Source of the DNA: Antedon mediterranea
Lineage: Eukaryota; Animalia; Echinodermata
DNA length: 64,000 nt
Assembly: GCF_964355755.1 (NCBI RefSeq)
Contig: NC_092672.1
Coordinates: 15,562,001-15,626,000, forward strand
Reading direction: 5' to 3'
The position numbers were made by a program, and so were the translations under genes. This document shows positions 5,098 through 52,838 of the stretch, piece after piece. Positions within the stretch are counted from its first letter, which is position 1, and each line of letters begins with the position of its first letter. The notes under the pieces are model-generated. The model was not told the origin of the DNA. It saw only the letters and a list, made by a program, of their open reading frames with translations, and made no database searches.

Positions 5098-6403
5098 TTT
5101 TTTACATCTATATTGAAAATTTGTTTAGAAGCAATAAAAATCAATTTGTGGGTAATAGGGGTAGACGCAGGGGTGTTGCCTGGGCAATTCCTTCTTTCTG
5201 CAAATTTCAATATTTTTTTCTGGAGTGTTGTTTAGGCAACACTGTTTATACAGTTTATAGTGGATAAATGAAAATAAATTTTGCTAATTGTGGTTTTACT
5301 GACTTATTTAGCATTTATTTCAAAATAATACAATTAAACGTTTTGCTCAAAATATTTATAGCAGCAGCCTCTTATTTTTTGTTTAGCTTTTTAAAATTAT
5401 GATTTGATAATAAATAATTTGTACTCATTATAATTGCTAATTAAATTTAATTAATTAATTTCCGGCCATCTAGTGGTGTAATTAAAAAAAATTTGCATCG
5501 CTCCTCTATGGGCCAAATATGTGGTTTTGCGGCTGGACTCTTCTTGGCCAACACCCTTAAAATAGTCCTCTACGACCACCCCTGCCTGTTAAAATTGCAT
5601 GTTGCAAATCTAGCCAAAATACAATCGATTTTAAATAGCTTGGATCAGCTCTGTATTTGTTTTGCATTGGGAAATCTGTAACATTCACAACAAATATAAT
5701 TTTTACTAAAAAAAAAATCATGTCATTCAAATTTTGTTAATATAAATTTATTTATGTATAAGTTTCTAGCCACAGTACAATTGAGTTTAGATGAGCTTAG
5801 CTCTACCTTTTGTTTGAAGGCTCTGTGTTTACTGTACGTTATTAATATAGCTATCATAAAAATTTGAGTTTTTACACCAAAAAACTGTTAAAAATCATGT
5901 TACTGTATTTATTTAAATAAACACCTGAGGATTGTTATGAGTGCAAAGCACTATCCAATCGTATGCTACACCTCAAACAATATAAATTATAATATAAAAT
6001 AAAACTAAACAATAGATTAAAGCAACAACAAAAAATTTATTTACAGTTAAAATGTTTCATGTGTACAGAAAAAAGCTGCTTAATATAACATTGGAGAGCT
6101 GTCGCAAATATGTTGAAAATAATAAAGAATGTTCTTTTGGAATATCTTACCATACACAGAGACAATTATTATAATAAATATTAGAAAAACTAACTCTCTC
6201 GTCCATAGAAAGTAAATTTAAATTACCCATTGCACAAAGTTGTATTTGTGCTACAGTAGTATTATATTTTTTCAAAAAAGAAAACCAGACTCTAGTGGTC
6301 CTACGGAAACCGGTGAAAAGTTCATTAGAATCAATGTTTGTTCATTTCTAGGGTTGTTTACTATCACTGATCGGAGATAGTTACTAAATGGTTGTTTAGG
6401 GGT

Positions 6404-11020: not shown

Positions 11021-11841
11021 TATGGAACGCCGTTTACGCAACATTTCGATGATATGAATTTTATGACGCGATATGTGAATGAAATGCATCGATATGAATT
11101 GAATGGCGTGATATATGAATGAAATGTTTTGAATTGAATGCTTTGAATTGAATGTTTTGAATGAAATGTTTTGAATGAAATGTTTTGAATTGAATGTTTT
11201 GAATAAAATGTTTTGAATGAAATGTTTTGAATGAAATGTTTTGAATGAAATGTTTTGAATGAAATGTTTTGAATGAAATGTTTGAATTGAATTGAAAAGT
11301 CAAACTATTGGCGGCGTATGTCATTCCCGCTCGCGATTTTTTTTCAACCTCTTAATAGGCCTAAGCATGGGTACCCTCATCTCCTTTCAACGCTGTCATC
11401 AATATGAATCCTTTACAGAGACTCCCTAACAGACCTGAAACATTGGAATACATATTTCCGAACCCAGGTCTGTTAGGATTCTCTGTAAAGGCAGCGTGGA
11501 AGAAAGGAGATGAGGGTACCCATGCTTAGGCCTATTAAGAGGTTGAAAAAAAATCGCGAGCGGGAATGACATACGCCGCCAATAGTTTGACTTTTCAATT
11601 CAATTCAAACATTTCATTCAAAACATTTCATTCAAAACATTTCATTTAAAACATTTCATTCAAAACATTTCATTCAAAACATTTCATTCAAAACATTTCA
11701 TTCAAAATATTCAATTCAAAGCATTCAATTCAAAACATTTCATTCATATATCGCACCATTTAATTCATATCGATGCATTTCATTCACATATCGCGTCATA
11801 AAATTCATATCATCGAAATGTTGCGTAAACGGCGTTCCATA
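11021..11841. mobile_element. Foldback MITE, IS3EU-like (TATGG...CCATA, 6-bp TSD)
   Basis: TSD CTTTTA at 11015-11020 and 11842-11847; ~400-bp inverted arms containing 14-bp tandem repeats (TGAAATGTTTTGAA). Confidence 0.9.
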
Positions 11842-18430: not shown

Positions 18431-19057
18431 TTACCTCTTAAAGTCATCGTTAAATTTTTTAATCCCAGCAGGTAGAAACGAATTTGAGTATCGACCCGTC
18501 CGCGCCAACACCGACCTCAGTCTACCACTTCTACCAATGTGGCAGCGAAGAAGATCCGAATGAAGGGGGTGGCTTTCCTCCTCCATGACCGCCTGTAAAC
18601 CATTTTTCAATCGTTCTCCGTAGTGACAATCGTAGACTGAGTCCGCTGTCAGCGCCGACGAGCCAATCACTCTTAATGCCCTTTCTAACACTTTACATAT
18701 GCGGCCCTTATCTCCTTTGTTTATGTTCCCACCCCAGCCTAATAGGCAATAATCCCAGATTGAAAAAATAACAGATGAATAAAACATTGTAAGTATCTCT
18801 TCCCTTACCCTAAAAACGTTCATTTTCCTCAAACAGTACAGTCTAGTATTTAATTTTTTAATTAGTTGATCTACATGCTCTCCCCATGATAAATTATTGT
18901 CATACGTTACCCCAAGATACTTATATGTTTTAACGATTTCTACCTCATGTCCTTTAATCTGGACAGGCTCAATTTCCCTTCTTTTTTTACGGCGGAAATC
19001 TCCATTCGCATTTCTTTGGTTTTTGCTACATTAAGTTCAAGGAAATTTTCATCACAG
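18431..19057 (-). pseudogene. C-terminal part of the Rex1-like ORF
   Basis: Continues ..KYC|DENFLELNVAKTKEM..YKYLG..; frameshift near 19003; stop at 18431. Confidence 0.8.
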
Positions 19058-19416
19058 TGTAACCCAGGCTACAAAAGTAGGCCAGTCTAAGAAGATGAAG
19101 GGTAACCCAGGCTACAAAAGTAGGCCAGTCTAAGAAGATGAAGGGTAACCCAGGCCACAAAAGTGTGCCAGTCTAAGAAGATGAAGGGTAACCCAGGCCA
19201 CAAAAGTGTGCCAGTCCAAGGAAATTGCAACATTTACACATTCCTACTTCCTTACAAACAAAGAAAGTACTGACCAACATACTTTAAGTATGAGCTAATT
19301 ATTTTAAGGATAAACTATTAGCTGATCAAACTCCAAATAAGGAAATAGGGCCACCATCATCTACCATTAGATAATGGTCCAGGAATGTATTTCGGAACAA
19401 CAGGGTGGGGCCAAGA

Positions 19417-19450
19417 TATATAAAAAAGACTGCAGAGTTGGGAAAAGTCA
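19417..19450 (+). promoter_or_regulatory. LTR TATA box and initiator
   Basis: TATATAAAA at 19417 with TCA at 19448-19450, about 30 nt downstream. Confidence 0.7.
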
Positions 19451-19555
19451 CAACTCAACTCTAAATCTATTGAGAGCAGTCAGGTCCTCCCTGATACTTT
19501 TTGTACGTTCTGAAAGAAGTTGTATTTACACTTATTCCTTGCTCAACAAATTCAG

Positions 19556-20026
19556 GTAAGATAACCAACATAAACTTATTATTTTGTAGCGTAAGTAACA
19601 TAGCTAAATTCTTTAGTTGTACTTGTTAACTACATATAGGATACTACTTTTATGTTTATCATTGCCTGTTGTTAAATCCAGCAATGAATTTCTTATCTTA
19701 GATACAACTTGATATATTGTAAATATGTACTATATGTTTGACCACCTTATATCGTATTGATTGTATGTTTATATGTAAGTTAGAGTGTAGTAATAAGACC
19801 CTGTCATTATATACTCACTAGGCTATGATTTATTAGCTAATCCTAAATTATCCTTGAATGAAGCCTGTATAGAGAATTCTGTAGTTATAGGAATTAAATA
19901 CAAAAAGGCTACCGTAAATCACAACTCAACTCTAAATCTATTGAGAGCAGTCAGGTCCTCCCTGATACTTTTTGTACGTTCTGAAAGAAGTTGTATTTAC
20001 ACTTATTCCTTGCTCAACAAATTCAG
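19556..20026 (+). other. Predicted 471-nt intron inside the LTR
   Basis: CAG|GTAAGA donor at 19556; ..TTATTCCTTGCTCAACAAATTCAG|G acceptor at 20026; contains ATTAAA at 19893. Confidence 0.6.
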
Positions 20027-20418
20027 GTTGAGGGAAGATTGCCCAAGTTGGATTCTGTGTGTAAAGTCCACAGCCAGACGAGGGAATCGGTGGAGTGTAT
20101 AAGCATCAAACTTCGAACGGGTTTACCACACCAAAAAGGGGACAAGCTCGACCACTGCCAGTTGTCAACAAACTTAAGTTTGACTTGTTATCTAAATCTT
20201 TAAGCATACTTAATTGTGTGCCATTTCAATTATAAGTCGCATATTGTATAATTTGTATTATGATTTAGAATAATAACACATCTACTATAAGCCAACTATT
20301 TTGTACTCTTTTATTTATTATCTATGTGTGTCTAGTGCCGCTGCCCCAATCAACTCGAACCCCGCTTACCCTAAGTCGATAATCTTTTGTGTTGTGTGTA
20401 GAGCGGTTACATAAAAAC

Positions 20419-20436
20419 TGGCGCCCAATGTGGGGC
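20419..20436 (+). promoter_or_regulatory. Primer-binding site, tRNA-Lys type
   Basis: TGGCGCCCAATGTGGGGC, one difference from the tRNA-Lys1,2 PBS TGGCGCCCAACGTGGGGC. Confidence 0.85.
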
Positions 20437-20641
20437 TTGAAAAGGCACTAGTTAGATAATAAATTTATAATTATATACTATATTGCATATTTTTATCATT
20501 GTATTATATTTCATGCTTTTCAATTTTACTTTATAATATTTTTGTACCCTTATATATCTAATTATTGTTTTACAATTTGTAATATTTGATCGTAATTTCA
20601 CTTATTTTAATTTACAATTGTAACTTCTTATTGTGTATACC

Positions 20642-21961
20642 ATGGATATATATGACTGGTGTATTAAACATAAGGTCGATCCTAGTCATGCTATTGCATT
20701 AAGGGGTGTATTGAAGGCCAATTATAGTCACGATAGAATACCTAATGCATTCAAAGAAATAGATCGATCCCAGGTTGTTGAAGTTATAGATGAAACAGAT
20801 ATCACTTTTCAATTACTACTTTCGTTTTCCAAACCTGTAGTAGATCTAAATATCCCCACAACCATTGACCACACAGATAACGAAACCTGGACTATTATAA
20901 AATGGGATGGGAAGACCCCAGAAAAGGACACCCATATCCTACCCACAGATTTCCAGGGACAACTACAAAAATTTCTCTTAGAACATGGGAAAACCCTGAA
21001 CGATCTTAGGCTAGATTCCATCCCCTCCGACACCAAAGAAGTAGTAGTAAAACACCTAATAGGCAACAACGTGCCCCGTACGGCCGGTGTTCGTCGGTTA
21101 CGACAGTTTTCGGGACGGGTGCCAATCCCTTCAAATGAGGTAGACTTTGAGACTTGGTCTCAACTAGTCCAACAACTTTTAAGGGATGATAGCTTATCAC
21201 AGGCTGAACAAAAGAGCATCTTAAGTCAAAGTCTCTTTCCACCAGCACTTAATATCCTAAATAAAGTGACAGATAAATCAACTGCTAGGGAATGCCATGA
21301 TGTACTTAATGAGGTCTATGGTTTGGCAGTGGATGCAGATGACCTCTATACTCTATTTAGGGAGACATATCAGTCGGAAGGGGAACTGCCCTCTAAATTT
21401 TTAATGCGCCTAGATGAAAATCTAACTAGGGCAACAAAGGCAGGGGCAGTTGGGGTAGCAAAGGCTGACCATATGAGACTAGCTCAATTTGTCCGTGGGC
21501 TAGTATATGACGAGATGCTATCATCTACATTAAACCTGAAACAACGCAAATCAAATCCCCCTACTTATTTAACACTGATTAAAGAAGTTAGAAGTGAGGA
21601 AATTAATAGTAGGGCTAGGGCAGAAAAGCGAACACCTAAGGCAGTTAGTGCCAAGGCTGCGTTATGTAGCTATGAAGCCCTTAGCCATGAGGTAGAAGTT
21701 CTTAGAACTGAGCTACATCACCTCAAATCAACACCAAGCCCACCAGAGTCCACCCCTAACCCAAAAACGCGTTCTTCACCTGCGCCAAACACTAGGCCTA
21801 AAATATGTTATAATTGTGGCGAGGATGGGCACCACATGAGGGGTTGTCCCAACCCAACTAATGCCACATTAGTACAGCAGAAATTGGTCAAACGGTTTAA
21901 TCAGGCGGGAAACGGCAGAGGGCATCCGGGAAGAAGGGACAACGGTCTGCCCCATCAGTAA
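20642..21961 (+). CDS. gag: Gag (PNMA/Ma-like capsid plus CCHC zinc knuckle)
   Basis: First ATG at 20642; RLRQFSGRVPIPSNEVDFETW; CYNCGEDGHHMRGC. Confidence 0.9.
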   Translation: MDIYDWCIKHKVDPSHAIALRGVLKANYSHDRIPNAFKEIDRSQVVEVIDETDITFQLLLSFSKPVVDLNIPTTIDHTDNETWTIIKWDGKTPEKDTHILPTDFQGQLQKFLLEHGKTLNDLRLDSIPSDTKEVVVKHLIGNNVPRTAGVRRLRQFSGRVPIPSNEVDFETWSQLVQQLLRDDSLSQAEQKSILSQSLFPPALNILNKVTDKSTARECHDVLNEVYGLAVDADDLYTLFRETYQSEGELPSKFLMRLDENLTRATKAGAVGVAKADHMRLAQFVRGLVYDEMLSSTLNLKQRKSNPPTYLTLIKEVRSEEINSRARAEKRTPKAVSAKAALCSYEALSHEVEVLRTELHHLKSTPSPPESTPNPKTRSSPAPNTRPKICYNCGEDGHHMRGCPNPTNATLVQQKLVKRFNQAGNGRGHPGRRDNGLPHQ

Positions 21962-21970
21962 AAAGGTCCC
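21907..21970 (+). promoter_or_regulatory. -1 ribosomal frameshift signal (G GGA AAC plus predicted pseudoknot)
   Basis: Heptamer is in the correct gag phase; the -1 frame is open into the protease; stems GGGCA/TGCCC and GGGAC/GTCCC. Confidence 0.8.
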
Positions 21971-24811
21971 AACAAAAGAGAAAGGGAAACACTGGAACAA
22001 AAACCTCCAATAATTTACTCCATAGTGCAATATCACAAACTAATAATCTTATAGGCGACCCTAGTGTCGTAACAATAATTGTTGACGGTCATATATGTAA
22101 TGCAATGTTAGATACAGGCTCGCAAGTTACATGTATCAGTGAAGACTTTTATAAAGATAAATTAAGGGATAAGCCTATATACCCATTAACCGATTTAATA
22201 GTAACTGGTGCTGGCGGTCAGAACGTACCTTATCTAGGTTATATAGAGGTCAATTTAACGTTTCCTAAAGTCCAGACGGGCTATACAAAACAATTCCCAA
22301 CATTAGCTTTAGTGTGCCCCAAATTAGGGAAGGGACTGTCTATGTTAATGGGCACCAACACCAGTATAGTTCGGGATCTGGCCACTGGCTGGACAAATAC
22401 TAAGAAAAAGGGAAGGAAAGTAGGCCCCATACACTCTGCTTGGGCTGAAGTGTATAAAGAGGATAAGGCTAAGAAAGATAAACTAGGCCCCGTTAAAATA
22501 TGTTCTCCTATGACAATACCTAGAGGAAAAATAGTAGAGGTAGAATGTGTTATAAAGAACACAGTACACCCTAACTTAGATGTGTTAATTGAAGCATCCC
22601 CGGATATCCCACTTCCTGGAGGGCTTTTAATCACACCCTTAATAGTCAAGTTAGAACATATGGGCCCAGTTAAACTTAGAGTTCCTTTGTCAAATTCTAG
22701 TAAAGAAATTAGGCTAAATAGAAACTTTAAGATTGCCACTGCTTTCATCCCCCAGTCTATAACGCATCACAGTCCGGAAGTTCACTGTAACTCAAGTACG
22801 GCCTCAAACAATTTTAATTTTGATAGCTCGCCAATTTCACATATAGATAAGGCAAAATTTATTAATTTACTTAATAATCATCCGAATGTTTTTTCAAAGA
22901 ATGATTTAGATATAGGGAGAACTTCGGCTGTAAAACATAAAATACACCTAACTAATGACACCCCATTCCGTCAACCTTGTAGGAGGATACCCCCATCTGA
23001 TTTCAATGATGCTAGGGACCACATTCAAGATTTATTAAGGAAGAATATCATTAGAGAGTCCGAAAGCCAGTATAGTTCTCCTATAGTATTAGTCAGGAAA
23101 AAGAAGACTAACGAAATTCGATTATGTATAGATTACAGACTTCTAAATTCTAGGACGGTTAGGGACCAATACAACGTCCCCAACATTGAAGATGCCCTTA
23201 CAACCTTACGTGGTGCCAAATGGTTCTCATGTCTTGACCTCAAATCAGGCTATTACCAAATTGAAATGGCTGAGGAGGATAAAGCAAAAACTGCATTTTG
23301 GTGCCCATTGGGATTCTATGAATTTAACCGAATGCCCCAAGGGATCACTAATGCCCCCGCCACCTTCCAGCGATTAATGGAGAAGTGCATGGGGGAGTTA
23401 ACATTTTCCGACGTTCTAGTTTATTTAGATGACTTACTAGTTTTTTCAACCACACTAGACGAACACCTAGCTAAGTTAGACAAAGTATTATCTAGGCTTG
23501 AAGAGTATGGCTTGAAACTAAATCCAGACAAGTGCAATTTTGCCCAAACTTCCATTAAGTGCTTGGGCCATGTCATTTCAGAGGATGGGGTAAGCACTGA
23601 CCCAGATAAGGTAGAGGCTGTCAAATCTTGGCCCCGCCCCTCAAATGTAAAAGAATTGAAATCATTTCTAGGTTTTGCTGGTTATTATCGACGATTTATA
23701 CAGCATTATAGCCATATTGCCAAACCATTAAACCAACTTATGACTAAGTATGACCCAATACGTAAACGAGGTAAAACGTTCAAAAAACCTAAATCCAATA
23801 CTCCCTCAGAAAGGCGCCCTAGTCCTAATACCCCATTTGGTACTAACTGGTCCGAATCATGTCAGGTGGCATTTGATGTACTAATAGATAAATTGTCTTC
23901 AGCCCCTATATTAGGATTCGCAGACTACAATTCACCATTTATTCTACATACCGACGCTAGCACAAGCGGGTTAGGTGCAGCCCTATATCAAGAGATAAAT
24001 GGGATAAAGAGGGTAATTGCCTATGCTAGTCGTGGGTTATCCAAAAGTGAAGCCAATTATCCTGCTCATAAATTAGAGTTTCTTGCCCTAAAATGGGCGG
24101 TGACTGAGAAATTTACTGACTATCTTTATGGTCAACGATTTGTAATTTACACCGATAATAACCCCTTAACGTACGTGTTGACGACAGCTAAGCTTGACGC
24201 TACAGGTCAAAGGTGGCTTGCCGCCCTGGTCAATTACAACTTTGATATTAAATACAAAGCAGGTAGAAACAATCAAGATGCAGACGGTCTTAGTCGTCGC
24301 CCACATGACCCCCCTTCCAATGACTTTGAATACGAACAATATCAAGAGAAAGCTGACGAAGTGTTAGGTAGAGTAAAATTTTCATCCTGTTCGTTCACAG
24401 CAGTCTGTAATGCTAAAATAGTTAAAAAGTCTACTATACCTAATGATACAACACCCTTAGTTGAGTCAGTTAGTGATTCTCCTGATGCAATCCCCGCCAT
24501 CTATGATAACCCTATTAGGCCTATAGATGGGCAGTCAACCTTGCCTAATGTTACTGCAGCGGAGTGGGTAGAGCATCAACAACAAGACCCTAATATAAAA
24601 CCTATTTTTAAATTTGTATATAACAAACGGAAACCTACACAAGATGAACTCACAAAATTACCCGAGGAAACTAGGCTACTCCTGAGACAGTTTGATAAAT
24701 TATTGGTAAAAGATAATATTCTATACCGCCAATTTGTAAATAATATCGGAGCTATGCAATTGCAATTAGTACTTTCAACCGCTTATAGAGATAAAGCATT
24801 TACTGGCTTAC
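21907..24811 (+). CDS. pol: Gypsy Pol: protease, RT, RNase H and start of integrase
   Basis: LDTGSQ, LCIDYR, YLDD, HTDAS, YTDNNPL, DADGLSR; continues in frame into the inserted LINE. Confidence 0.93.
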
Positions 24812-27738
24812 CTAAAAGTCGTAAGTTTTTCTCACGTCCGATCGCTTATTACAGTAACCATACGGCATGTTTTAGTATTGATATCTTGTCTGCTGGTGAT
24901 ATTGAAACAAATCCAGGTCCAATGAATTCCAGAATGAAAGATTTAAACGAAATCCACCGACCCAACAACATAAAAATCGCTATGTTCAACGCCCGAAGTA
25001 TTGCTAATAAAATCCAGGATCTTCAAGTACGGATAGAAAATAATGTTGATATAGTGTTGTTGACTGAAACATGGTTGGATCCAACGATTAAGAGTGCAGA
25101 GATTTTCCCGTTAGATTACTGTGTTCATAGAAACGACAGAAACAGACACGGTGGTGGTGTTCTGATAGCATGCAAACATTCTATTGATGTATTATCTGTG
25201 GACATTGACACTAATATTGAGGTTCAACTGGCTGAAATCCATGTATCTGGAGGAAGTATTCTGCTTGGCTGTGTTTATAGACCCCCGAGTTCATCAAGAG
25301 AATGGTTAACCAATTTTCAAGAACTCTCAGACAATATACTCTCCATCATGCACAAATATACTGCTGTGATCATCGCTGGTGATTTCAATTATGACTTTGG
25401 TTCGAACTCGAACTGTAATATTGAGTTTGAAAATATAATGTCATCTCTTAATCTTGTTCAACTTGTAAATTTTCCTACCAGATATGCAAATAATGGATCA
25501 CATTCTATGTTAGACCTTGTGTTCTGTAATAATAATGACATTATTCATAATGTCACAGGTGAACCTGGAATTAGTACAAGTGATCATATAGGTATCTTCT
25601 TTGACTTAGCTGGACGGTTGGTCTGTCCTAAACAAGTTCCTAGATATTTTTATCAATATAAAAAGGTTAATCATGATGATTTTTTCCAAACTCTTAATTC
25701 AGTCCCGTGGGATATCTGCTTTACACAGCTTAACTTAGATTCCACTTGGGCTTGTTTTAAAGACCTTTTTCTAGCCGCAATTGATGATTGCATACCCAAA
25801 GCTAAAAGCAAACCTCGCAGAAAATCAATCTGGATAACAACTGAAATTATTAAAATGTCTCGTAAAAAGAGACGCCTTTATCGAGATGCAAAGAAACATC
25901 CGAATAACATGTATAAGTGGGAAAAATACAGAAAATTTAGTAACGCATTGCGTGAAACTACGAGAAAGTCTCATTATGATTACCTCCATAATCTTAGTTT
26001 AGGCTGTAAATCTAATCCTAAACGATTTTGGTCATATGTTAAGAAAAAACGAAAATGTGCAACAGAAAGAAAGTATACTTTAAACGGCAATATCATAGAT
26101 TCAGATTTAAATGCTACTAAAGCATTTTCGAAATATTTTCATTCTAATTTTACTGAAGATAATGATGATTTCAATGTAACAAACGAAACATCTTATTGTA
26201 ATCACAGTGAAATTGTCTTACCTTTAACTAGTATTGTCATCAATAGGGATCAAATTTTCCGTGCCCTGTTATCTTTAGATACTAATAAATCCCCTGGGCC
26301 CGACGGGATTACCCCTATGATGTTGAGTATGGCTGCACCTGTTATATCCCCAATTTTGCTTAAAATTTTTCAAATGTCCCTTGACCAAGGCATTGTGGTG
26401 AAGGAATGGAAATTGGCCAATGTTGTACCAATTTTTAAATCTGGTAGTAGAAATGATATAAGTAATTATAGACCAATATCACTTTGTTCAGTTGTTGGCA
26501 AAGTTCTAGAACGTATTGTGGCTGATCATTTTTTATTTCATCTTCAATGTAATGCGTTTGTTAGTCCTGTACAGCACGGGTTCTATCCTGGAAGATCTTG
26601 TATTACACAAGCTTCATCCATATACCACGAATGGTCCAAAATATTAGATGGTACGAACCCACCAGTCGTCGATGCTATATTCCTTGATTGGGAAAAAGCA
26701 TTTGACCGTGTGAGTCACCCTAAACTATTACGTAAGCTCCACAATTTTGGTCTATGTGGTCCAATTTTGAAATGGATGGGCTCATTTCTTACTGATCGTT
26801 GCCAACAGATTGTCCTTAATGGACTGATATCTGACCGTACACAAGTTGTTTCAGGTGTACCTCAAGGGTCGGTACTTGGCCCATTACTTTTCAACTCGTT
26901 CGTTTTTGACCTCCCTATGTCGATCACCTCTCAAATTAGACAATATGCCGACGATACGGTGGTGTTCAGGCCAATTAGATGTGAATATGATGCGATATTA
27001 CTTCAAAAAGATCTAGATAACATCGATGAATGGTGTCAAAATAACATGATGAGACTTAATGCTAAAAAATGCAAAGTTCTCCATATTACTCGCAAACGTA
27101 ATCCCATTCATGCTCGTTATCACATTCACACTAATGACCTTCAAGCAGTTACCTCCTACAAATATCTTGGTATTCACTTTGAAAGCAATCTCTCTTGGTC
27201 AACGCATGTGTCCGCAATTACCACAAAATCTCTCCAAATTGTCGGATTCATAAAGCGTTTTGTGATATTTAACGACCCTGTAATTTTGATGAGGCTTTTT
27301 AACGGTTTATGTAGGCCCATACTTGAGTATGCTGCCCCTGTTTGGGTGCCTCATCAAAAACAACATATTACTAGCATAAATAAACCTCTTCGAAGGATCA
27401 CAAAATTGTGTGCTAAGGGCGATTACGAGCAACGGCTCGAACATTTAAATTTGCCATCTATGGACCAGAGAGTGTGTTTTCTCAGTATACTTTTTATTAT
27501 GAAATGTATGTATGGTCGAATTGATCTTAATATTCACGATTTTGTTGATTTTAATCCAAGGTATTCCGAATCAGTTATTTTTAAACACAAATATGCCAGA
27601 ACCAATTCTTTTAAATATTCATTGTACACTAATTTTCCCCGTGTATGGCAAGAGATTCCTAATTATATTAGAGAACATTCTTTATTTAGTTTTAACACAT
27701 TTGTGACAGCTCTCCGGTCTTATGTCAGGCAACTTTAA
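24812..27738 (+). CDS. LINE ORF2: 2A-like peptide, AP endonuclease and RT
   Basis: GDIETNPGP; LTETWL, GDFN, SDH; GVPQGSVLGPLLF, YADD, YKYLG; no stop codon. Confidence 0.9.
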
Positions 27739-28026
27739 ACTTTTTATTTTTTTTATCTTTAAACAATCATTTTTATCTGTACATAATATTTATATATATA
27801 TATTTTTTAGATTCAATTTTAATGATTGTTCAACTTGACGCCTCGCAATTTTAAATTTTTATATCTTTGTCTTTTTATGGTTTACTTATTTGTTCAAGTG
27901 CAGTATATGGAGAGCCATCTCGATAGTGCTTTGCACTCATGGCAATCCTCAGGGTGCTGCACCGCTGTCTTGTTGTCATGTTTTTTTGTGCCTGAAAATT
28001 GAATAAAATAAAATAAAAAAATAAAA
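24812..28026 (+). mobile_element. 5'-truncated CR1/L2-group LINE with intact ORF2, inserted in Gypsy pol
   Basis: Removing it restores ..KAFTGL-HDDIGH..; TAC duplicated at 24809-24811 and 28027-28029; (AAATA)n tail. Confidence 0.9.
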
Positions 28027-28028
28027 TA

Positions 28029-29674
28029 CATGATGACATTGGTCACCCTGGGATGGAACGGACCTTGGATCTTGCCCGATCCAGATTTTATTGGCCTCGT
28101 ATGTCCTCCCAAATTGAAGATAAATGTAGGTGTTGTGAACGATGTGTCCGAAGAAAGGCCCGTGCTACCAAAGCAGCCCCCCTAGTTAGTGTCAGAACCA
28201 CCATGCCTATGGAATTAATGTGTATTGACTTTCTGTCTATAGAACCTGATTCTAAGGATACTAGAAATGTATTAGTTGTGACTGACCATTTCACTAGATA
28301 TGCTATTGCTATCCCAACTAAGGACCAAAAAGCCCCCACAGTAGCAAAAGCTCTGTGGAATAATGTCTTTCAACATTATGGCTTTCCAAAACAATTACAT
28401 TCAGATCAAGGCAGAGATTTCGAATCAAAAGTTATCCAAGATTTATGTAAATATTTAGGAGTAAGAAAATCTCGTACAACCCCATACCATCCCCAGGGTA
28501 ATGGTCAGGTAGAACGGTTTAACCAAACCCTGCTTAAAATGCTAGGCACTCTAGAAAACCAAAAGAAAGAACATTGGCGAGACCATGTTGCACCCTTAGT
28601 GCATGCATACAATTGTACTAAGAATGATGCTACGGGAATGTCCCCATATTATTTAATGTTTGGTAGAGAAGCCCGCCTCCCAATTGACATCCAACTACTG
28701 TAGGTATTGACCCAAATCAAAATGGTTCACTTTCTCCAAGGGGATATGCCGACAAATTACGACATCGCCTAGAAACAGCACACAAATTAGCCCAGGAAAT
28801 GGCAACCAAGAAAGCTAATGCCAATAAAGCCCGATATGATAGTAAAGTGCGTGAATGCACTATTTGCAAGGGTGATAGGGTACTAGTAAAAAATGTGCGC
28901 TTAAGGGGTAAACATAAACTTGCTGATAGGTGGGAAGAAACTATTTATGTGGTTTTGGAACAAATAGGGGACAACCCTGTGTACAAGATAGAACCTGAAG
29001 ATAGTGATGGCCCTACTAGAACATTGCATAGAAATATGCTACTCCCATGTAGGTTTGCTACAGCAAAGGAAACTCCCCCTAAAAGTGGTACTAAAGAAAA
29101 ACAAAGACAGAGAAAGCCTGTCACTCGACAAGGGCACAAAACGCCTAAGTCAACTGTCCCACAGCCAGAACTATCTGGACATGAAACAAGTGATAGTGAT
29201 TTAGATTATTACATTCCAAATTCAGTTCGCACACTTCAACAACCAACAGATCCATCTATACCTCCTAATCTGGGTAATGACCAAAACGTGGCTCAAACTA
29301 TTATAGAAACCCCAATTGTTAACGAAATAGAACCTCAGATCAATGAGGAAGATGTAATAGTTAACCATGATATTAATGATATCGAAGATGCTGTTATTCA
29401 TAATTTAGACAACAATGATAATGTTAATATTGATAATGCTAATAATGAGCCTGATATTCAACCTGATGTCCACGAACCACAGGCTAATACAGATGATACC
29501 TTACGTCCTAAACGACTAAGAACACAGCCAGAAAGGTTAGGTTATTTTGCTCCTGGCCAACAAGTTACATCAACTTCTAATATGGTGGTCCAAGTCATTG
29601 GGATGCAAAACCAAATGTTTGCTGATATGATGCAATCTCAATTATCACTTTTAAGAGGCTCTAAGCCGAATTAA
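28029..29674 (+). pseudogene. Gypsy integrase (HHCC, DDE core, C-terminal tail), cut off from pol and frameshifted
   Basis: HDDIGH..CERC, CIDF, HSDQG, QVERFN; a 5-bp insertion at 28698-28702 breaks the frame. Confidence 0.9.
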
Positions 29675-29900
29675 TTTTATAATGTTATTTTTACTATATG
29701 TTTATATATACACGCCAATTTTGATTCCTTTTCAATGTAATATTTTTTTTCACTGTCTATTTTTATGTGTTAAGACAGGTGAATTACGATCAAAAAACTA
29801 AATGGTGACGTAGTTAAGCACTATTTTTAATGTAAATGTTGGTTACCATTGAGTTTGTTGAGCGTCGTCCGGGGACGGACGAGTATTTTGGCAGGGTGAG

Positions 29901-31215
29901 TGTAACCCAGGCTACAAAAGTAGGCCAGTCTAAGAAGATGAAGGGTAACCCAGGCCACAAAAGTGTGCCAGTCTAAGAAGATGAAGGGTAACCCAGGCCA
30001 CAAAAGTGTGCCAGTCCAAGGAAATTGCAACACTTACACATTCCTACTTCCTTACAAACAAAGAAAGTACTGACCAACATACTTTAAGTATGAGCTAATT
30101 ATTTTAAGGATAAACTATTAGCTGATCAAACTCCAAATAAGGAAATAGGGCCACCATCATCTACCATTAGATAATGGTCCAGGAATGTATTTCGGAACAA
30201 CAGGGTGGGGCCAAGATATATAAAAAAGACTGCAGAGTTGGGAAAAGTCACAACTCAACTCTAAATCTATTGAGAGCAGTCAGGTCCTCCCTGATACTTT
30301 TTGTACGTTCTGAAAGAAGTTGTATTTACACTTATTCCTTGCTCAACAAATTCAGGTAAGATAACCAACATAAACTTATTATTTTGTAGCGTAAGTAACA
30401 TAGCTAAATCCTTTAGTTGTACTTGTTAACTACATATAGGATACTACTTTTATGTTTATCATTGCCTGTTGTTAAATCCAGCAATGAATTTCTTATCTTA
30501 GATACAACTTGATATATTGTAAATATACTATATGTTTGACCACCTTATATCGTATTGATTGTATGTTTATATGTAAGTTAGAGTGTAGTAATAAGACCCT
30601 GTCATTATATACTCACTAGGCTATGATTTATTAGCTAATCCTAAATTATCCTTGAATGAAGCCTGTATAGAGAATTCTGTAGTTATAGGAATTAAATACA
30701 AAAAGGCTACCGTAAATCACAACTCAACTCTAAATCTATTGAGAGCAGTCAGGTCCTCCCTGATACTTTTTGTACGTTCTGAAAGAAGTTGTATTTACAC
30801 TTATTCCTTGCTCAACAAATTCAGGTTGAGGGAAGATTGCCCAAGTTGGATTCTGTGTGTAAAGTCCACAGCCAGACGAGGGAATCGGTGGAGTGTATAA
30901 GCATCAAACTTCGAACGGGTTTACCACACCAAAAAGGGGACAAGCTCGACCACTGCCAGTTGTCAACAAACTTAAGTTTGACTTGTTATCTAAATCTTTA
31001 AGCATACTTAATTGTGTGCCATTTCAATTATAAGTCGCATATTGTATAATTTGTATTATGATTTAGAATAATAACACATCTACTATAAGCCAACTATTTT
31101 GTACTCTTTTATTTATTATCTATGTGTGTCTAGTGCCGCTGCCCCAATCAACTCGAACCCCGCTCACCTCAACCCTAAGTCGATAATCTTTTGTGTTGTG
31201 TGTAGAGCGGTTACA
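29901..31215 (+). repeat. 3' LTR (1315 bp), preceded by PPT GGCAGGGTGAG
   Basis: Matches the 5' LTR; duplicated 108-bp block at 30248-30355 and 30717-30824. Confidence 0.95.
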
Positions 31216-33155
31216 ACAGTATTTCGTAAACCTAACTATTTCAGATTTGAAATTTGTATCGTCATCCTCTTTTATTAAACCTATCATAGCAGAATCATCT
31301 GCAAATTTAATTACTGGACAGTCCGGGAACCTAGGTTGGAAATCCGATGTATACAATGTGAACAAAAACGGTGCAAGTACAGTACCTTGTGGTGCTCCCG
31401 TATTTGTCCGAATAATGTCGTCCGATCTGACATTTTGATTTAGCCTAACAAACTGGAGACGTCCAACGAGGAAGTTAAAAACGAACGAAATTAGTAAATT
31501 GGGGATATTCATGCCGAACAACTTATTAATTAAAATGTGTGGTTGGATGGTATTAAAAGCTGAACTAAAGTCGAAGTACATAATCCTAACAGACGGGGAT
31601 GTTCTCCAATTGTCAAGATGGGCATACATTTTTTCATTTTTGTATATTAATGCGTCTTCAGTGTTCCTGTTTCTCCGATAAGCGAACTGATGTGGGTCCA
31701 AAAAATCTGCAACTAATGGTTTCAGGCTTTTTAGAACAATCTTTTCACAGACTTTTATTGGGACGGATGTTAGCGCAACAGGTCTAAGATCGTTAAAACA
31801 CTGTATATTTTGTCGTTTAGGGATTGGGATGATGCATGACGTTTTCCAGGATTCCGGCAAGGTTTGTGTTTCAAAAATCAAGTTAAAAATATATACAAAA
31901 ATATCTGCCAATTGGGTTGCGCATAATTTAAGAACTTTGGGTAGAATTTGGTCTGGTCCAGCTGATTTGGATGCTTTCAGACCTTTAAAGTGGCTGGTAA
32001 CTTCATCCGCATTTGTCTTAAGGTCAAAACCACTTTCATCTGGTAAGGCCAACCTACTTTTGATTAAGATCTGTTCATCAGAAAAATTATAGCGATCAAA
32101 CCTATTAAAAAAAGTATTTAATTCATTAGCATATTGATTAGTCAAATTTGACACAATTCCACTTCCTTGTGGCGATTTTGCATATCCGCTCATTTGCCTC
32201 ATTGCCCTCCAAACCTTACTCATATCATTACCTACAAAATTTTCTTCTATTTCACGTTTGTACTTTAGTTTACTTTTACGTATTACTCGTTTAAGTTCCT
32301 TTTGGATTTTATTTAGTTCAATTACATCACCTCGATCGAAGGCCTGTCTCTTTTTCTTAATAACATCTGTCACCTCCCTATTTATCCATGGTTTACGGTT
32401 TCCGTAGATTTTAACTTTCCTTTTTGGTATTACATTTTCAGTACAAAAGTTAATATATGCACTGACCGCTTCCGTTACCTCGTCTGACCCGTTTGAATTT
32501 TCCGTAAAAACACTCCAGTCCGTAGTTTCAAATTCGCATTTCAGCTGTTCTATTGCATCTTGAGTCCACTTCTTAACAGTAATTACCCTGGGTTTCTGCC
32601 GTTGTACTAATGGACGATACTTGGGTTGTAGTATAATTAAATTATGGTCAGATTTACCAAGTTTCGGCAATTTTCTTGCTAAATATGCGTGTTTTACGTT
32701 TGAATAACATACGTCAAGGGTAACAGATTCCCGCGTGCTGCACTTCACATGTTGGTAATAGTAAACGCTACTCTTTTTTAGGGTACAATGATTAAAGTCT
32801 CCATTTATTACAATATATGCGTCAGGGGAAGCCGTTTCAATTTCCGCTATAACTACGGTTAGTTCTCTTTGTGCTTCCTTGGCCAGATTTTTGTTTGGTA
32901 TGTATACAACCACTAACACAACATGTGAAAATTCCCTCGGTATGTAGAACGGACGTATTGAGAGTACCATTATTTCAACGTTAGGCGAGCAGCTGTTTTT
33001 CTTTAGATGCACATTATTTGGGTGACAATACCTTTCGCTTATATATGCCATAACACCGCCTCCTCTATTTTTTCCGGATTTAACCGTTCTATCACCTCTG
33101 AATAATGTAAACCCATCAATCCTAAAATGTTCGTCACTTTTCTCTTCACTTAACC
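31216..33155 (-). pseudogene. N-terminal/central part of the Rex1-like ORF (APE-RT)
   Basis: TWL, GGGV, GDFN, SDH and RT motifs up to FADD; the 686-aa ORF runs artefactually into the LTR. Confidence 0.88.
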
Positions 33156-35520
33156 AAGTACTTTTATGAAGAAGAATCACATAAAAAGTAACAAATAAAT
33201 CCTTAAATTGATGATTTTACAGACATGTTTCTCGCATACCGTTCGCGAATTTAGCATACTCGAAGTTCAATATTTTCGTTTCTATGGAGCGCCAGAAGAG
33301 CAACAACAACAGATGGTTAAAAACTCAGTGGAATGCGTCTTCTTTTAATGCATTTATTATTGAAATGTAACATTTTACTGCTAATAATTTGCTGTTTTCA
33401 AATAGCAACCAACCCTAGGCCTAAGAGTAAGACTAAGACTAAGAAGAATATTATTTAGATCAGGTATACCTCTACAGTACATGTAATATGATGATGAATT
33501 TGTCGATTTTCATTCCTAAAAGTTCCTGCAAAAACCATGTACAGTATGAACAGTAATATTTTTGTTGCATTGACATTGACAAAATATGATAAAATTGAAC
33601 GTAATTTTCACCAATAAATGCATTAAATATACACAATTTACTGAGTGTTTAGCCCTCTATTATGATTGCTCTTTTGGCACTCCATATAAACAACAACATT
33701 GAACATGGAGTATGCGAAATTCACGAACCGATGTGTGAGAAACATGTCTGTAAATTCATCAATTTAAAGGATTTATTTTTTACTTTTTGTGTGATCTCCT
33801 TCGTAAAAGTATTTTTGAGGCCTAATTCTAGGGTGTGGTACTCATGATAAAGTTACTTAACCAATTAACCAGTGCGAAACGGAACTAGCGCCAAATGAAT
33901 TGCCTATTTTCATCTAAAAAATAAACGCATTTGGTCCCCGGGGCACAAACGATTCGTACAAAGGACACCATACAACTGCGTAGGCCTACCTATTGTTTAG
34001 ATTGCTGGCAGTCAGCAAGCATAAATAAAAGTGTATATACGTCAAAAATGGAACGCCGTGGTTACCTACAGATCATCATCATAGAGGATATTTTAATAAT
34101 AATATAGTACACTGTGTACTGTAGTATACATTATAGCAACCGGTTTTTTTTCTAGGCCACCCACCCAACTGTATCACTATTTATATTTATATAAAAAAAT
34201 AATTAATTAATAATTGATGTAAATAAATATTGAGCTATAATAAGCATTAAATTTTGCGCTTTTTTCGGGGTTTCCCCTAGATGTACGTTCGCATTGAACC
34301 TAAACGCAATGCAATCAAAACTAAATACTGGGTGAATGAAATCGGCAATCGTCCAGTAATTAGTCACATGTTTATTGGAGGGAAAAAATATGATCGTTTT
34401 GCTCATTGGTGTAGCATGCTGCATATGACAGTGTCTTTTCGTGCAAATTAGAGGTGCCATTTATCATGAATTTTATGTGCGAGTGTACCATTTCTGGCCA
34501 TCTGGGGCGTCATTAACAAAGTTTGTTTCGCCACAGGTCCTGTCGACGGCCCTGGACAAGCACCTTTTTCGGCCATGTACGTGCAAACTCTGACTTGCGC
34601 GAAACTCTCTGTTGTGATGCCTATGGGGAAAATGTCACTCTTTAATAGTTTTCATATTTAAAATATCAATTTTTAAAACATTTATTTAACGTGAGAGTGC
34701 CATTTCCGACCATCTAGAGGTGTTATATTTTCAAAATAGCCAAAACTTAGCCCCAACCATGGTGGAGCTGAGTTTGTGTGGACTCTCTACAGCTGAGAGC
34801 CCCCCCCCCCCCTCCCCTTTCACAAAATCCTGGATCCGCCCCTGACAATATATCACTAAAACAGTAAAACATTTGCGATTTAATACTTTGGTAAAACTGT
34901 CAATGTCATAGTCGATTGAAATAGTAAAGTACATGTAACGATACACCACTACGACGTTTATATTTGTTATAGTTATTAATTAATACAAACGTTGAGAAGC
35001 AACTATCACTAATAAAGTTTATTTATATATTATGTGTTTATATATCTAACAGACCCACAGTAAGAAATTTTCGATTGAAATGGCGAACAAAAATGGTTAA
35101 TACTTATTTACAGTACTAGAGGGTGAGCTCACTTCACTCTCTCCCCCTTTAGGATGTGTAGACGATGGTTCTCGGAATGATAATGAATGAAAAGGTTTTA
35201 GAAGGACGTACTCTCCTTGTACGTTTTCTGTCGGTAGGCCTATACCATTATTGAAAATGCTTGACATTCGTAAAACTAAACCTATTCTGTTTCACAGTGT
35301 CTTAGATGATTAATAACATTTTAAAGTATAATGTTTTTTGTTTGGTAGGTGTAGTATTGTGATAAACCATAATTATAGTAAACCCTAGAGGGCAGTAGAT
35401 ATAGAGGACGGGATACATACAATGGACATGGAGACAGAATAAGAATAAAGACAACTAATGTTGTTTAGTGTTTATTAATGGTTCTTGTATTAACGTCAGC
35501 ATACAGAACACAACATTACA

Positions 35521-39589: not shown

Positions 39590-41870
39590 TACTGTACCTT
39601 CACATGCACGGTCCGATCTGAAAGTAAACAAAAAACTAAAATGGCTATAGCCACTAACAGCCGACTTAGTTGAAACCAGGAAGTTGCAAGGTGAACCTGT
39701 GAACGGTTGAACTCATAGTGAACCCGGAAATTACTTGGACTGTCTGCCAAATTTGGTCTGACAGACCGATTTTGGCCGCCAAATTCAGTCCGGCAAACCG
39801 ATTTTGGTCGTCAAAATTGGTCCGGCCTGGATAAAACCGGTCCCGGTGGCAGGACTACTTTAGGCCGCTAAATATGACCAGGCCTTGTTTAAATATGGTG
39901 CGCCAAATTGGTCGCAAATAAGAAAGAGTTTATTATATAGTCAAAATATGATCGCAATTTTACTGATAATGTTTATATTGTATATTTATTATAGTGTAGT
40001 AAAAAATCAGAAAAAACAATTTTCCTTTCTTATCTATATATAAATTTACGTAAGGGCAAAATTCGGTAAATCGCGCCTTACTTCTAGAATTTTTACTCGA
40101 TGGTATGTAAAGTTGGTTCGTACTTTCGGTACTGATTTTAACCACCTGATGTAACCCTGTTTACTAATTAAATTAAGTTAGATAATTAGTTATTGACGAT
40201 TAAAACGAATTTAGGTTCAACGATTTGCCCCAAATAGGGGTGTTTTCCGATCGTGGTATACACTGTCTAATGGATGTCCATCTTGAAAAATACCTGCCAC
40301 AAAAATGCGAGGAGGCTTCGCATTTTCCTATCTCCTCCTACGATAATTGTTTTTAATAGCTGAAAACCGGATGAACAGCTAGAGTACGCCATCATAATGT
40401 TGAAGACAGTTTTTTTAAAGAAAATCGGCTTAGATAGATTTAATATACGATTATACAAATGTATTGATTTGCGATGAATGGAACATCCCAATCTCTCAGT
40501 CTGCCAGAGTATGGTTTAACACAAGTACTGTAGGTAAATTTATGAGCCCTTGGTTTAACACATACCGTAGGTAAATATATGGGCCCTTTGAGAATAAACT
40601 TGCAATACCTTGACAATACTGTAAATACCTATTAACTATTTTAACTTACTGTGAATGTTCGTACTGTTAGATGTAATATAAAAATATATACAAATAAACT
40701 TTATTACTGAGATTGTGGATAGGCTCTACTGTTAGATATATAAACACATTATTATATACAAATAAACGTTATACTGACAGTTCTTTCTCAACGTTTGTAT
40801 TAATTAATAATTACCAAATATAAACGTCGTAGTGGTGTATCGTGACATGTACTTTAATATTTCAATCGATTATGACAGTGACAGTTTTAACTAAACTAAA
40901 TAAAGAATGTTCTCTAATATAATTAGGAATCTCTTGCCATACACGGGGAAAATTAGTGTACAATGAATATTTAAAAGAAATAAATAAATAAATAAAATAA
41001 ACAAAGTATTAAATCGCAAATGTTTTACTGTATTTAGAGGTATATTGTTTATAGGCCTATAAAACATGAAAAAAATATTTCGTTACTGAGTGGATAAAGA
41101 ATATATTTAAAAATTGTTCCTCTTTGTACCTATCCGCTTTCCCATCCCTCAACCCTAATGTTACATACAAAACACAAATTGGGTTTCTTAAAATTTGGAC
41201 TCATTTTGTGATAAGTTTCTCCTTCGAAAGTAATTCCCAGGGTGCTAATTTTAGTTGACTACATAAATCATCGTGTCTATTTATTCGTTTCTGTAAACGA
41301 CAATGTATTATAGTCCTGCGGTACGTACATTTGAAATCGCCAGTTTTGTTACGCTGAAATTACTGTGTATTCGAGAACCATCTGTGGGCACGACCTAGAT
41401 GGTACGCGAGCGAAGCGAGCGTACCATCTAGTTTTCATAATCGACACTAAATATATCTTTTATCTTGTTATAAATGTTGTTCATTTTGCTCATAATATCA
41501 CTGTGTAAGAATAGCAGGTGTAAAAGTAATTTCCGCGTTCACGATTAGTTCACCAATTACATCGTCACCTTGCAACTTCCTGGTTTCAACTAAGTTGGCT
41601 GTTAGTGGCTATAGCCATTTTAGTTTTTTGTTTACTTTCGAATCAGACCTCGCATGTGAAGGTACATAGGCCAATATATGAACGTGGGACAGTCTGAAAT
41701 TTTGACGAAACAAATCGTTGGACCTAAATTCGTTTTAATTGTCAATAACTAATTATCTAACTCAGTTTAATTAGTAAACAGGGTTATATCAGGTGTATAA
41801 AATCAGTACCGAAAGTAAGAACCAATGCGTGATTTACCAAATTTTGCCCTTATGTAAATTTATATATAGA
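39590..41870. repeat. Inverted repeat arms (39590-39690 plus 40030-40235 versus 41565-41870)
   Basis: AAATGGCTATAGCCACTAACAGCC..GTTGCAAGGTGA and TCGGTACTGATTT..TTATTGACG recur reverse-complemented. Confidence 0.65.
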
Positions 41871-50840: not shown

Positions 50841-52838
50841 ATATATGTAGTAAAATTATTAAAAAATGCACTGGATTCCATTAAAACTATTTTCATATTT
50901 GTACTTGGTTAAATTTGATATTTGCCCTGTGGCATTGTATGCAAAGTAATTCTTTTTATAATTGAATTGGAATATATAAGTGCCATTTATTTGCAAATTT
51001 GATGAGTTTTTTCCAAGCTTATTAGTGTTTTTGTGAAATACTAGGGTTTCAATTTGTTTTTTATTGATAATAGACTTTAGATAATGGCCTTAGTCATGTT
51101 TATCATTAGATATTAGATTGCGAAATGGTTGAAGTAAAGAGGCTAATGTATAATGAAATTAATGTAAAGATGGGCAGTGTGAACATTAACTATCTGGTAA
51201 CCGTTTTCAGGTTTTATTTCATTTGAGTAATTTGGGTGAAACTAAACATTGTTGAAGTAGGATGTCTATGTTTGAAATACATTAATTCAATTTAGTGGAA
51301 CTGGGATGAAGAATGAGGTAGTATAGTACATCCGTAGGCTGTTAATTAGAATCTAAAGAAATTAATTTAGCACAATCATTTAGTGGATGTAAAATTGGCA
51401 AATGTTAATTTCTGAAGTTGTTGTTTTGTTGGTTATAAAAATGCAGTTTTCTATACTACTTATTTATATCCTACCATATACCTATGTTATATTTTCGATC
51501 TCAAAGATAGCCATTCATTGCTCAGGTCCATTCTATTGTCGCCACAGATTGATATCTTCATCAGTACTTCTATGAATGGATTATTAGATAGGAAGATGTT
51601 ATGTCTAGCTATGGTGCCAGTAGGCAAGATGATACATTTGTTATTAGTACACTTCCTGTATTATCAGTTGGTTTACAAATACCACCTGTACCTATACCAA
51701 TTTGTATAGTCATATAGATAGTAGAATTGTGAATAAAATAGTTGTTAAAAAGTAGTCGAAGTGAATACATGTTTCTTTGAGTCAACTTTACAATACATTA
51801 CTACTGTACAAAGGTACTGGGGGTATATAACAGAACATAAACACTAGTTGGTTATACCCAGTACCGTTTTGATCATGCGATTAATCGGGAAACCACCTCA
51901 CGCCAAGAGAATGCAATGAGTGTTGACAAAGTGCGAGGCAGCGAGGCACAAAAGGCAAGCAAGGAATGCGAGGCATGCCAAATATTTGTGCAAGGCATCA
52001 TTTTATCATTTGCAAAAGAGCGAGGCATGTGAGGCATATAGTTTACAATTTTTAAAAGTGTGAGGCATATCATAGCGTTCTATGCTATATTATAGGTCTA
52101 ATAATCAATATTATTTATATTTTTATAATAGGCTTAGCGTATCTAAATAGATTTGTGTACACTCATCATGTTGTTTATTTTTATGTAACGATTGTTATTT
52201 TCATTCAAGTCATATCGTGTCAAATTTTACTTTTACAAAAGTGCCCAAAAAAGTTGTCTGTGGTAATAGTGTGCATGAATGACAGTCTTCAACTTCCAAT
52301 AAACAATAATTGATATAGCAAAACACATCAAATGACTGCATGCTTGATTGGCATTTCGAGCCTGTTCACTTTCCAATTAATTTAACATGTCTCTCGAACA
52401 TAGCAGAGTGAAAATAATATTTTGTCACACCCACACACGTTGATCCGGTAGAAAAAAAATAATGTTTTCAAAAAAACAAAATAAATAGTTTTTTGGATAT
52501 TTTCGCCACAATTCCTGCATTTTTGTTTTGGACTTCACAAGAATGAAATTATGAATATAGAATATGTTGATAAGTTATTAAAAACACAATATCCCAAAAC
52601 TGGTTATATCCTAGGACCGAAGTTTTATATTATGTATATTAAATCCTTGGGCGAAATCTTTCGTCAACATGGAATGGAATTTTTGTTAATATACAAAATA
52701 AGTAGATTAAAACTAAAATTCTCAATTCAATAACATTTATTTACTTCCTTTTAAGATTTAAACAATAATGGAATAAATAAGAAATAAAATAGACAAATAA
52801 CAATAAGGAAGGAAGAAGGCAGGTATCCCAGAAAGATA

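What the first reader, a model, noticed from the sequence alone, without database searches (positions are those of the whole stretch)
22105..27738. LINE inserted in frame into Gypsy pol with a 2A peptide able to release its ORF2 protein
Seen: one 1877-aa ORF with two reverse transcriptases (Gypsy PR-RT-RH, then LINE APE-RT). The promoterless, 5'-truncated LINE begins at 24812 in the pol frame and about 30 codons later reads GDIETNPG-P (24895-24921). Established: D(V/I)ExNPGP causes ribosomal skipping, and 2A-like motifs occur at the N-terminus of some invertebrate LINE ORFs. Inference: the LTR promoter, -1 frameshift and StopGo would give free full-length ORF2p plus an integrase-less Pol, so 2A could rescue truncated LINEs landing in frame in any ORF. 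In-frame sense insertion also happens by chance about 1 time in 6.
Basis: partly seen in the sequence, partly recalled or inferred. Interest (0 to 1): 0.78.

Follow-up and report, generated by a model that had tools for sequence, protein, structure and literature searches.

The report
LINE nested in-frame inside Gypsy pol
A young jumping gene (a LINE with a known type of predicted ribosome-skip signal) sits in frame inside another jumping gene's polymerase gene and splits its integrase; this is likely a one-off accident, though the fused message could in principle still release the LINE enzyme, which is untested.

Summary
Observation confirmed. One open frame (21901-27738) joins Gypsy PR-RT-RNaseH plus an integrase stub to a LINE with GDIETNPGP, APE and RT. 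The LINE occupies 24812-28029. Contigs of 6 public runs show the Gypsy empty site (24811 joined to 28030). LINE contigs run 120-325 nt further upstream, so this copy is 5'-truncated inside its own leader. The 2A is native to the LINE family (Odon 2013); its 30-mer matches the assayed-active STR-51_SP at 20 of 30 residues. The rescue idea is possible but unsupported. No listed contig bridges the junction, and 0 of 375 fetched proteins match both halves. Longer LINE copies exist without any Gypsy help. Both elements are very young (LTRs about 99.8% identical), so an open frame needs no selection. The integrase has a second, independent break. Best reading: a chance nested insertion in an integrase-dead copy that may still yield a little free ORF2p. 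The scan has noted 2A-led LINEs on other genomes, but not this fusion.

The parts
19054..19057 (+). Left copy of the 4-bp Gypsy target-site duplication (ACAG)
19058..20411 (+). 5' LTR (TG...CA, 1354 nt)
   Evidence: 1306 matches and 3 mismatches to the 3' LTR (one beside a gap), 3 indels of 43, 2 and 6 nt
20419..20436 (+). Primer-binding-site-like stretch (tRNA-Lys type is recalled, not tested)
   Evidence: one search shows the sequence
20642..21961 (+). gag (PNMA-type capsid, CCHC knuckle), open
21907..21913 (+). G GGA AAC heptamer in X XXY YYZ register with gag: predicted -1 frameshift site
   Evidence: the downstream hairpin 21920-21952 is not better than shuffles (z -0.53)
21901..24811 (+). 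Gypsy pol 5' part: PR, RT, RNase H and the integrase N-terminal stub up to just before the first His of the zinc-binding motif
24812..28029 (+). 5'-truncated APE-type LINE, 3218 nt including a 3-nt TAC repeat that is either a short duplication or microhomology
24832..24921 (+). 30-residue 2A-like peptide ending GDIETNPG/P, native to the LINE
   Evidence: 20 of 30 identical to STR-51_SP (counted by eye); no differences here in the main LINE contigs of X2, X5, X6
24985..25587 (+). APE endonuclease domain
   Evidence: PF03372, aa 1029-1229
26230..27738 (+). LINE RT (YADD at 26944) and C-terminus to the stop; left edge approximate
27739..28028 (+). LINE 3' UTR and A-rich (AATAA)n-like tail with three AATAAA hexamers (28002, 28012, 28020)
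28030..29674 (+). Rest of Gypsy integrase (H2C2, rve, C-terminal part), cut off from pol
   Evidence: continuous with the 5' part in 6 of 6 homologs, no residue lost
28696..28703 (+). Second break in integrase: frame shift and early stop, absent from family contigs; reads like a Tc1/mariner excision footprint
   Evidence: table 4 (X1, X4, X7); footprint sequence in PMC6943129
29901..31215 (+). 3' LTR (1315 nt), preceded by a purine-rich tract and followed by the right ACAG duplication
31216..33216 (-). Older LINE (5' part) into which the Gypsy element inserted
18431..19053 (-). Older LINE, C-terminal part, continuing beyond the Gypsy element

Best explanation
A 5'-truncated, 2A-bearing APE-type LINE sits sense and in frame in the integrase gene of a young Ty3/Gypsy copy, most likely as a single chance insertion by target-primed reverse transcription that left an integrase-dead, non-spreading copy. 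The 2A is the LINE family's own feature: it likely separates a short N-terminal leader from APE-RT, and the truncation fell inside that leader, 37 codons before the skip site, so the whole 30-residue peptide survived. If the LTR is active, the predicted products are Gag, and after the -1 frameshift a Gag-Pol that ends in the 2A plus a small amount of free LINE ORF2p. That is a by-product of the anatomy, not a selected function. Shown: anatomy, empty site, truncation, youth, second break. Inferred: insertion mechanism, frameshift, skipping, single-copy status.
For: Empty-site contigs in X1, X4, X7 and X2, X5, X6: two organisms, three studies. No Gypsy residue lost (6 of 6 homologs) and an A-rich tail, as expected of a LINE insertion. 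LINE contigs extend 321 (X1), 120 (X2, X4, X5) and 325 nt (X6) upstream with non-Gypsy letters. 0 of 10 contigs laid on 24400-25300 bridge the junction. 0 of 375 fetched proteins match both halves. LTRs differ at 2-3 of about 1309 sites and the LINE differs from family contigs at 2 of 1526 (X1) and 1 of 490 sites (X2). 19 of 25 classified differences from run contigs are synonymous, so little neutral decay has occurred and an open frame is expected. Second break at 28696-28703. 2A motifs are common in relatives: 29 of 110 relaxed, 16 of 110 strict, 13 of 21.
Against: Contigs drop rare variants, so a low-copy chimeric family is not excluded, and hid 662 records. No genome is held, so copy number in this animal was not counted. 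Sense, in frame and 2A kept is a 1 in 6 event at best and about 1 in 27 on rough depth ratios in two of three runs. Everything needed to express the fusion is intact in sequence. LTR identity dates the last LTR-type copying, which could in principle postdate the LINE insertion.
Confidence: 0.8

Rival explanations
1. Functional rescue: LTR transcription, -1 frameshift and StopGo release full-length ORF2p, which copies the chimeric RNA through the LINE 3' end, so the locus is a source element.
For: LTRs, gag, heptamer and all listed catalytic motifs are intact. The 30-mer matches assayed-active STR-51_SP (20/30) and STR-69_SP (16/30). All three assayed natural YY-x-N-type peptides listed are marked active. 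The 3' UTR, which non-LTR RTs usually recognise (PMC2881922), is complete, and LINEs co-transcribed from a host promoter exist (R2, same passage).
Against: No junction-bridging contig. Longer LINE copies are present, so the family does not depend on it. Output would be frameshift rate times skip rate. The motif alone is not sufficient, and several CR1-clade 2As were weak or inactive. Only 43 of 580 RTE-linked 2As scored above 0.7. Activity tracked 3 or more leucines at -19 to -10 and this peptide has one.
Confidence: 0.1
2. The LINE was captured by template switching during Gypsy reverse transcription (LTR-mediated retroposition), which would make sense orientation automatic, and the chimera travels as a non-autonomous LTR element.
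For: Sense orientation, both LTRs intact, short shared letters at both joints (1 and 3 nt). Tan et al. 2016 describe such chimeras and their further copying.
Against: In Tan et al. all 15 fly cases replaced part of the LTR ORF, had a median 6 bp of microsimilarity and lacked tails. Here no Gypsy residue is lost, the tail is present and the overlap is 1-3 nt.
Confidence: 0.06
3. Assembly artefact joining two repeats.
For: No independent contig bridges the junction.
Against: Both joints fall at the same Gypsy position with nothing lost, the insert has a proper tail, and the element is closed by two LTRs and a 4-bp duplication.
Confidence: 0.04

Closest known systems
2A-bearing single-ORF APE-type non-LTR retrotransposons (Odon et al. 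2013, PMC3708506; main text parts 1-5 of 6 and supplement passages read; Luke et al. 2013, PMC3894237, part 2 of 3 read)
   Same: GD(V/I)ExNPGP in the N-terminal region of ORF2 directly before APE; echinoderm-type upstream context; apparently no room for an ORF1; N-terminally truncated copies were already noted.
   Different: Here the native leader is replaced by about 970 codons of Gypsy pol. The closest assayed peptides come from L2-clade elements, whereas this RT resembles the CR1-19_NV entry by eye (no tree built).
Tick Ty3-like RT with a C-terminal 2A-like peptide, XP_037284885.1 (Snell and Matreyek 2026 preprint, PMC13405545; abstract, sections 11, 13, 14 and supplement rows read)
   Same: A 2A-like peptide in frame after LTR-retrotransposon RT sequence.
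   Different: That 755-aa model ends about 10 residues after the motif, with no APE-RT behind it; its class is 'falloff only, reduced protein' in one file and 'skipping' in another.
LTR-mediated retrocopies (Tan et al. 2016, PMC5131818; abstract, sections 5 and 8 read)
   Same: Foreign sense-strand coding sequence between two LTRs, transcribed from the LTR.
   Different: Those replace part of the LTR ORF and lack tails; this is a clean insertion of a tailed LINE.
Ty3/Gypsy elements with PNMA-type gag (hits P0115-P0122)
   Same: LTR, PBS, gag, -1 overlap, PR-RT-RH-IN order, 4-bp duplication; 44-55% identity over the RNase H to integrase stretch.
   Different: Integrase is broken twice in this copy.

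Membership tests
2A-bearing APE-type non-LTR retrotransposon (Odon 2013) | GD(V/I)ExNPGP in the N-terminal region of ORF2, upstream of APE | tested here: met
   24895-24921, APE from 24985
2A-bearing APE-type non-LTR retrotransposon (Odon 2013) | APE and RT in one ORF, 3' UTR and tail | tested here: met
2A-bearing APE-type non-LTR retrotransposon (Odon 2013) | Single ORF, no ORF1 | tested here: inconclusive
   Family contigs end 321 (X1) and 325 nt (X6) upstream of the junction, too short for ORF1, but contig ends need not be element ends
2A-bearing APE-type non-LTR retrotransposon (Odon 2013) | Measured ribosome skipping | not testable with these tools
   Only similarity to assayed peptides
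CR1 clade | RT phylogeny places it in CR1 | not tested
   Resemblance by eye to CR1-19_NV only; no clade-labelled reference set could be loaded
Ty3/Gypsy LTR retrotransposon | Two LTRs, target duplication, gag, PR-RT-RH-IN order | tested here: met
Autonomous Ty3/Gypsy copy | Intact integrase in frame with pol | tested here: not met
   Split at 24811/28030 and broken again at 28696-28703
LTR-mediated retrocopy (Tan 2016) | Part of the LTR ORF replaced by the captured RNA | tested here: not met
   0 residues lost in 6 of 6 homolog alignments; empty site is exact
LTR-mediated retrocopy (Tan 2016) | No tail, microsimilarity of about 6 bp at the joints | tested here: not met
   A-rich tail present; overlaps of 1 and 3 nt
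Self-propagating chimeric element family | Multiple copies with the same junction | tested here: inconclusive
   0 of 10 contigs bridge it and unbroken empty-site contigs, but contigs drop rare forms and no genome is held

The most novel reading that the evidence does not exclude
The 2A makes the LINE enzyme portable: any copy truncated within its leader and landing in frame in an expressed ORF still yields free ORF2p. This locus would be a live case, a LINE driven by a Gypsy LTR, a -1 frameshift and StopGo in series, seeding new LINE copies and perhaps travelling between LTRs with the help of natural intact family members. That would give a selective reason for the unexplained 2A peptides of LINEs.
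Probability: 0.1. Interest if true: 0.7.

Novelty: new member of a known kind. Interest (0 to 1): 0.27.

Why it matters
As it stands it is an ordinary nested insertion of two known element types, with a tidy coincidence. Its value is as a pointer to a testable idea. Why many invertebrate LINEs carry 2A peptides is still open (Odon 2013; Luke 2013), and a family-wide excess of in-frame insertions upstream of the 2A would be a cheap genomic test of a 'portable enzyme' explanation. It also warns annotators that a two-RT ORF can be a nesting product rather than a new element class.

Tried and rejected
Whole-genome search for further copies: no genome is held. Expression: no RNA holder listed; X1 is only guessed to be RNA and was not used as evidence of transcription. 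Frameshift stimulator: the hairpin after the heptamer is no better than shuffles (z -0.53); pseudoknots were not tested. Longer fusion proteins: 1 hit among 3980 candidates, a brittle-star gene model starting with LINE pieces, no 2A, no Gypsy; weak evidence by the tool's own note. Fused-region search: the best 120 of 2794 hits cover at most 47% of the query and none lists an APE family. Clade assignment by motif look-up was uninformative. ATG 22105 rejected as a start. AATAAA in the tail is weak evidence, since six more occur in 20412-31215. Paper searches listed no report of a 2A LINE fused in frame to Gypsy pol or of the rescue idea; the library lacks most subscription papers, and the bioRxiv supplements of Baral et al. 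2026, which may hold closer assayed peptides, were not seen. PMC12846837 gave only a reference-list passage.
Full report
Observation. The + strand frame is open from 21901 to 27738 (1945 aa) and 1877 aa from ATG 22105. Pfam finds RVT_1 in two stretches, RT_RNaseH at aa 675-779 and Exo_endo_phos at aa 1029-1229. GDIETNPGP at 24895-24921 is the only 2A-type motif in six frames of the window. ATG 22105 sits directly before the protease motif LDTG, so the real product would be a Gag-Pol fusion: gag runs 20642-21961 and overlaps pol in the -1 frame behind G GGA AAC at 21907-21913, in correct register. The hairpin behind it is not unusual (z -0.53).

The host element. LTRs at 19058-20411 and 29901-31215 start TG, end CA and are flanked by ACAG on both sides. 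They differ at 2-3 of about 1309 aligned sites plus three indels. The element itself interrupts an older minus-strand LINE (31216-33216 and 18431-19053). The best LINE homolog is from the crinoid Antedon mediterranea (55% over 848 aa), which fits other notes calling this genome a feather star (unchecked AI notes).

The insertion. No genome is held, so I laid public contigs (8 of 12 listed runs laid). In X1, X4 and X7 a single contig runs up to 24811 and resumes at 28035 after 5 letters. In X2, X5 and X6 the letters after 24811 are those of 28030 onward. That is the empty site, in two organisms and three studies. The two pol halves are contiguous in 6 of 6 homologs with no residue lost. The break falls just before the first His of the integrase zinc-binding motif. 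The insert is 3218 nt, ends in an A-rich tail, shares one C with Gypsy at the 5' joint and has TAC on both sides. This is the signature of a LINE insertion, and differs from template-switch capture, where part of the LTR ORF is replaced (Tan et al. 2016).

The truncation. LINE contigs begin at 24811 and continue upstream with non-Gypsy letters for 120 nt (X2, X4, X5), 321 nt (X1) and 325 nt (X6). The 30 letters shown read by eye as ten codons without a stop in the same frame. So the copy lost the 5' end and part of its own leader. Relatives P0233 and P0239 carry the same YYSN-type 2A ending at aa 74 and 79, and their leaders look hydrophobic by eye. The window copy keeps 37 codons up to the final proline.

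The 2A. It is a family trait: 29 of 110 homologs have a relaxed motif, 16 of 110 the strict one, and 13 of the 21 LINE-side hits. Odon et al. 2013 described such peptides 40-80 aa from the ORF2 start and found STR-51_SP and STR-69_SP active. Rao et al. 2025 list their sequences (supplement rows); the window 30-mer matches them at 20 and 16 of 30 positions (counted by eye). Against: the motif alone is not enough and several CR1-clade peptides were weak or inactive. High-throughput data tie activity to three or more leucines at -19 to -10, and this peptide has one. Two 20-mers with a similar F-x-L-E-L context scored non-skipping. Only 43 of 580 RTE-linked 2As were highly active, though 56% were mid-range (Baral et al. 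2026 preprint, section 31). My estimate is about 60% for measurable skipping.

Has the chimera spread? All 10 contigs laid on 24400-25300 were listed and none bridges the junction. In one search the empty-site contigs are unbroken, though 662 records were hidden. None of 375 fetched proteins matches both halves (244 Gypsy side, 131 LINE side). Contigs drop rare forms, so this shows that the chimera is not the common form, not that it is unique. Near-full-length LINE contigs have summed depth comparable to or above the Gypsy ones (191 vs 373 in X2, 213 vs 21 in X6), a rough sign of several copies with longer 5' ends.

Is the open frame selected? Of the 40 difference rows shown (173 hidden) I classified the 25 coding rows where X1 differs and dropped X7-only and non-coding rows: 19 are synonymous (gag 7 of 8, pol 6 of 9, LINE 2 of 3, integrase C-terminus 4 of 5). 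The copy therefore comes from a recently active lineage and has had little time to decay. The LINE differs from family contigs at 2 of 1526 and 1 of 490 sites. An open frame needs no selection. The integrase has a second break at 28696-28703, absent from X1, X4 and X7, which reads like the canonical Tc1/mariner excision footprint (PMC6943129, one passage).

Chance. Sense and in frame is 1 in 6. Keeping the 2A also needs a nearly full-length copy; rough depth ratios give about 0.04 overall in X1 and X7 and 0.16 in X4. In a repeat-rich genome with deep nests such events are expected now and then.

Mechanism if expressed (inferred). LTR transcript, Gag as main product, a minority of ribosomes shift to pol, translate PR-RT-RH and the integrase stub, then skip at NPG/P and release ORF2p starting Pro-Met. 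The tail's AATAAA cluster could end the RNA at the LINE 3' end, which non-LTR RTs usually recognise (PMC2881922, passage). The 2A is not strictly needed, since the Gypsy protease normally cuts RT-RH from integrase (established knowledge, recalled) and an ATG follows the motif at 24922. None of this is shown.

Novelty. Both parts are known kinds. A partial precedent exists: a tick Ty3-like RT with a C-terminal 2A-like peptide. Seven paper searches listed no report of this fusion or of the rescue idea, and the scan's own index has none, though it has several notes on 2A-led LINEs in other genomes. Verdict: real, well-formed, most likely a one-off nested insertion; interest 0.27, with a 10% tail for a functional rescue route worth 0.7.

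Noticed in passing
window 28696-28703: The second integrase break reads like a canonical Tc1/mariner excision footprint, so a DNA transposon may have entered and left this very young copy.
   Followed up: partly
window 18431-19053 and 31216-33216 (-): An older LINE (APE-like N-terminus, RVT_1, ALKBH8_N-type C-terminus) is split by the Gypsy element, giving a three-level nest.
   Followed up: partly
window 40893-40979 (-): 87 nt identical to LINE coding sequence 27606-27692 with unrelated flanks; a similar left flank appears as a loose end in run X1 and depth spikes here, so it may belong to a high-copy non-autonomous repeat.
   Followed up: partly
window 5924-6182 (-): Decayed 3' fragment related to the inner LINE (74% over 123 nt, 94% over 32 nt).
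   Followed up: no
window 19056-19225 and 29899-30025; 19445-19557 and 19916-20028: The LTR holds a 43-bp tandem unit (one more unit in the 5' LTR) and a 113-bp internal duplication.
   Followed up: no
runs X2 and X5 laid on window 24823-25146: A second, about 92% identical LINE subfamily has a changed first residue of the 2A core and frame-shifting indels.
   Followed up: no
window 52680-54700 approx.: Homogeneous 53-bp tandem array, about 35 copies at 97-99% identity.
   Followed up: no
window 11088-11763: Two opposed arrays of a 14-bp unit with shared flanking sequence, suggesting a foldback or MITE-like element.
   Followed up: no
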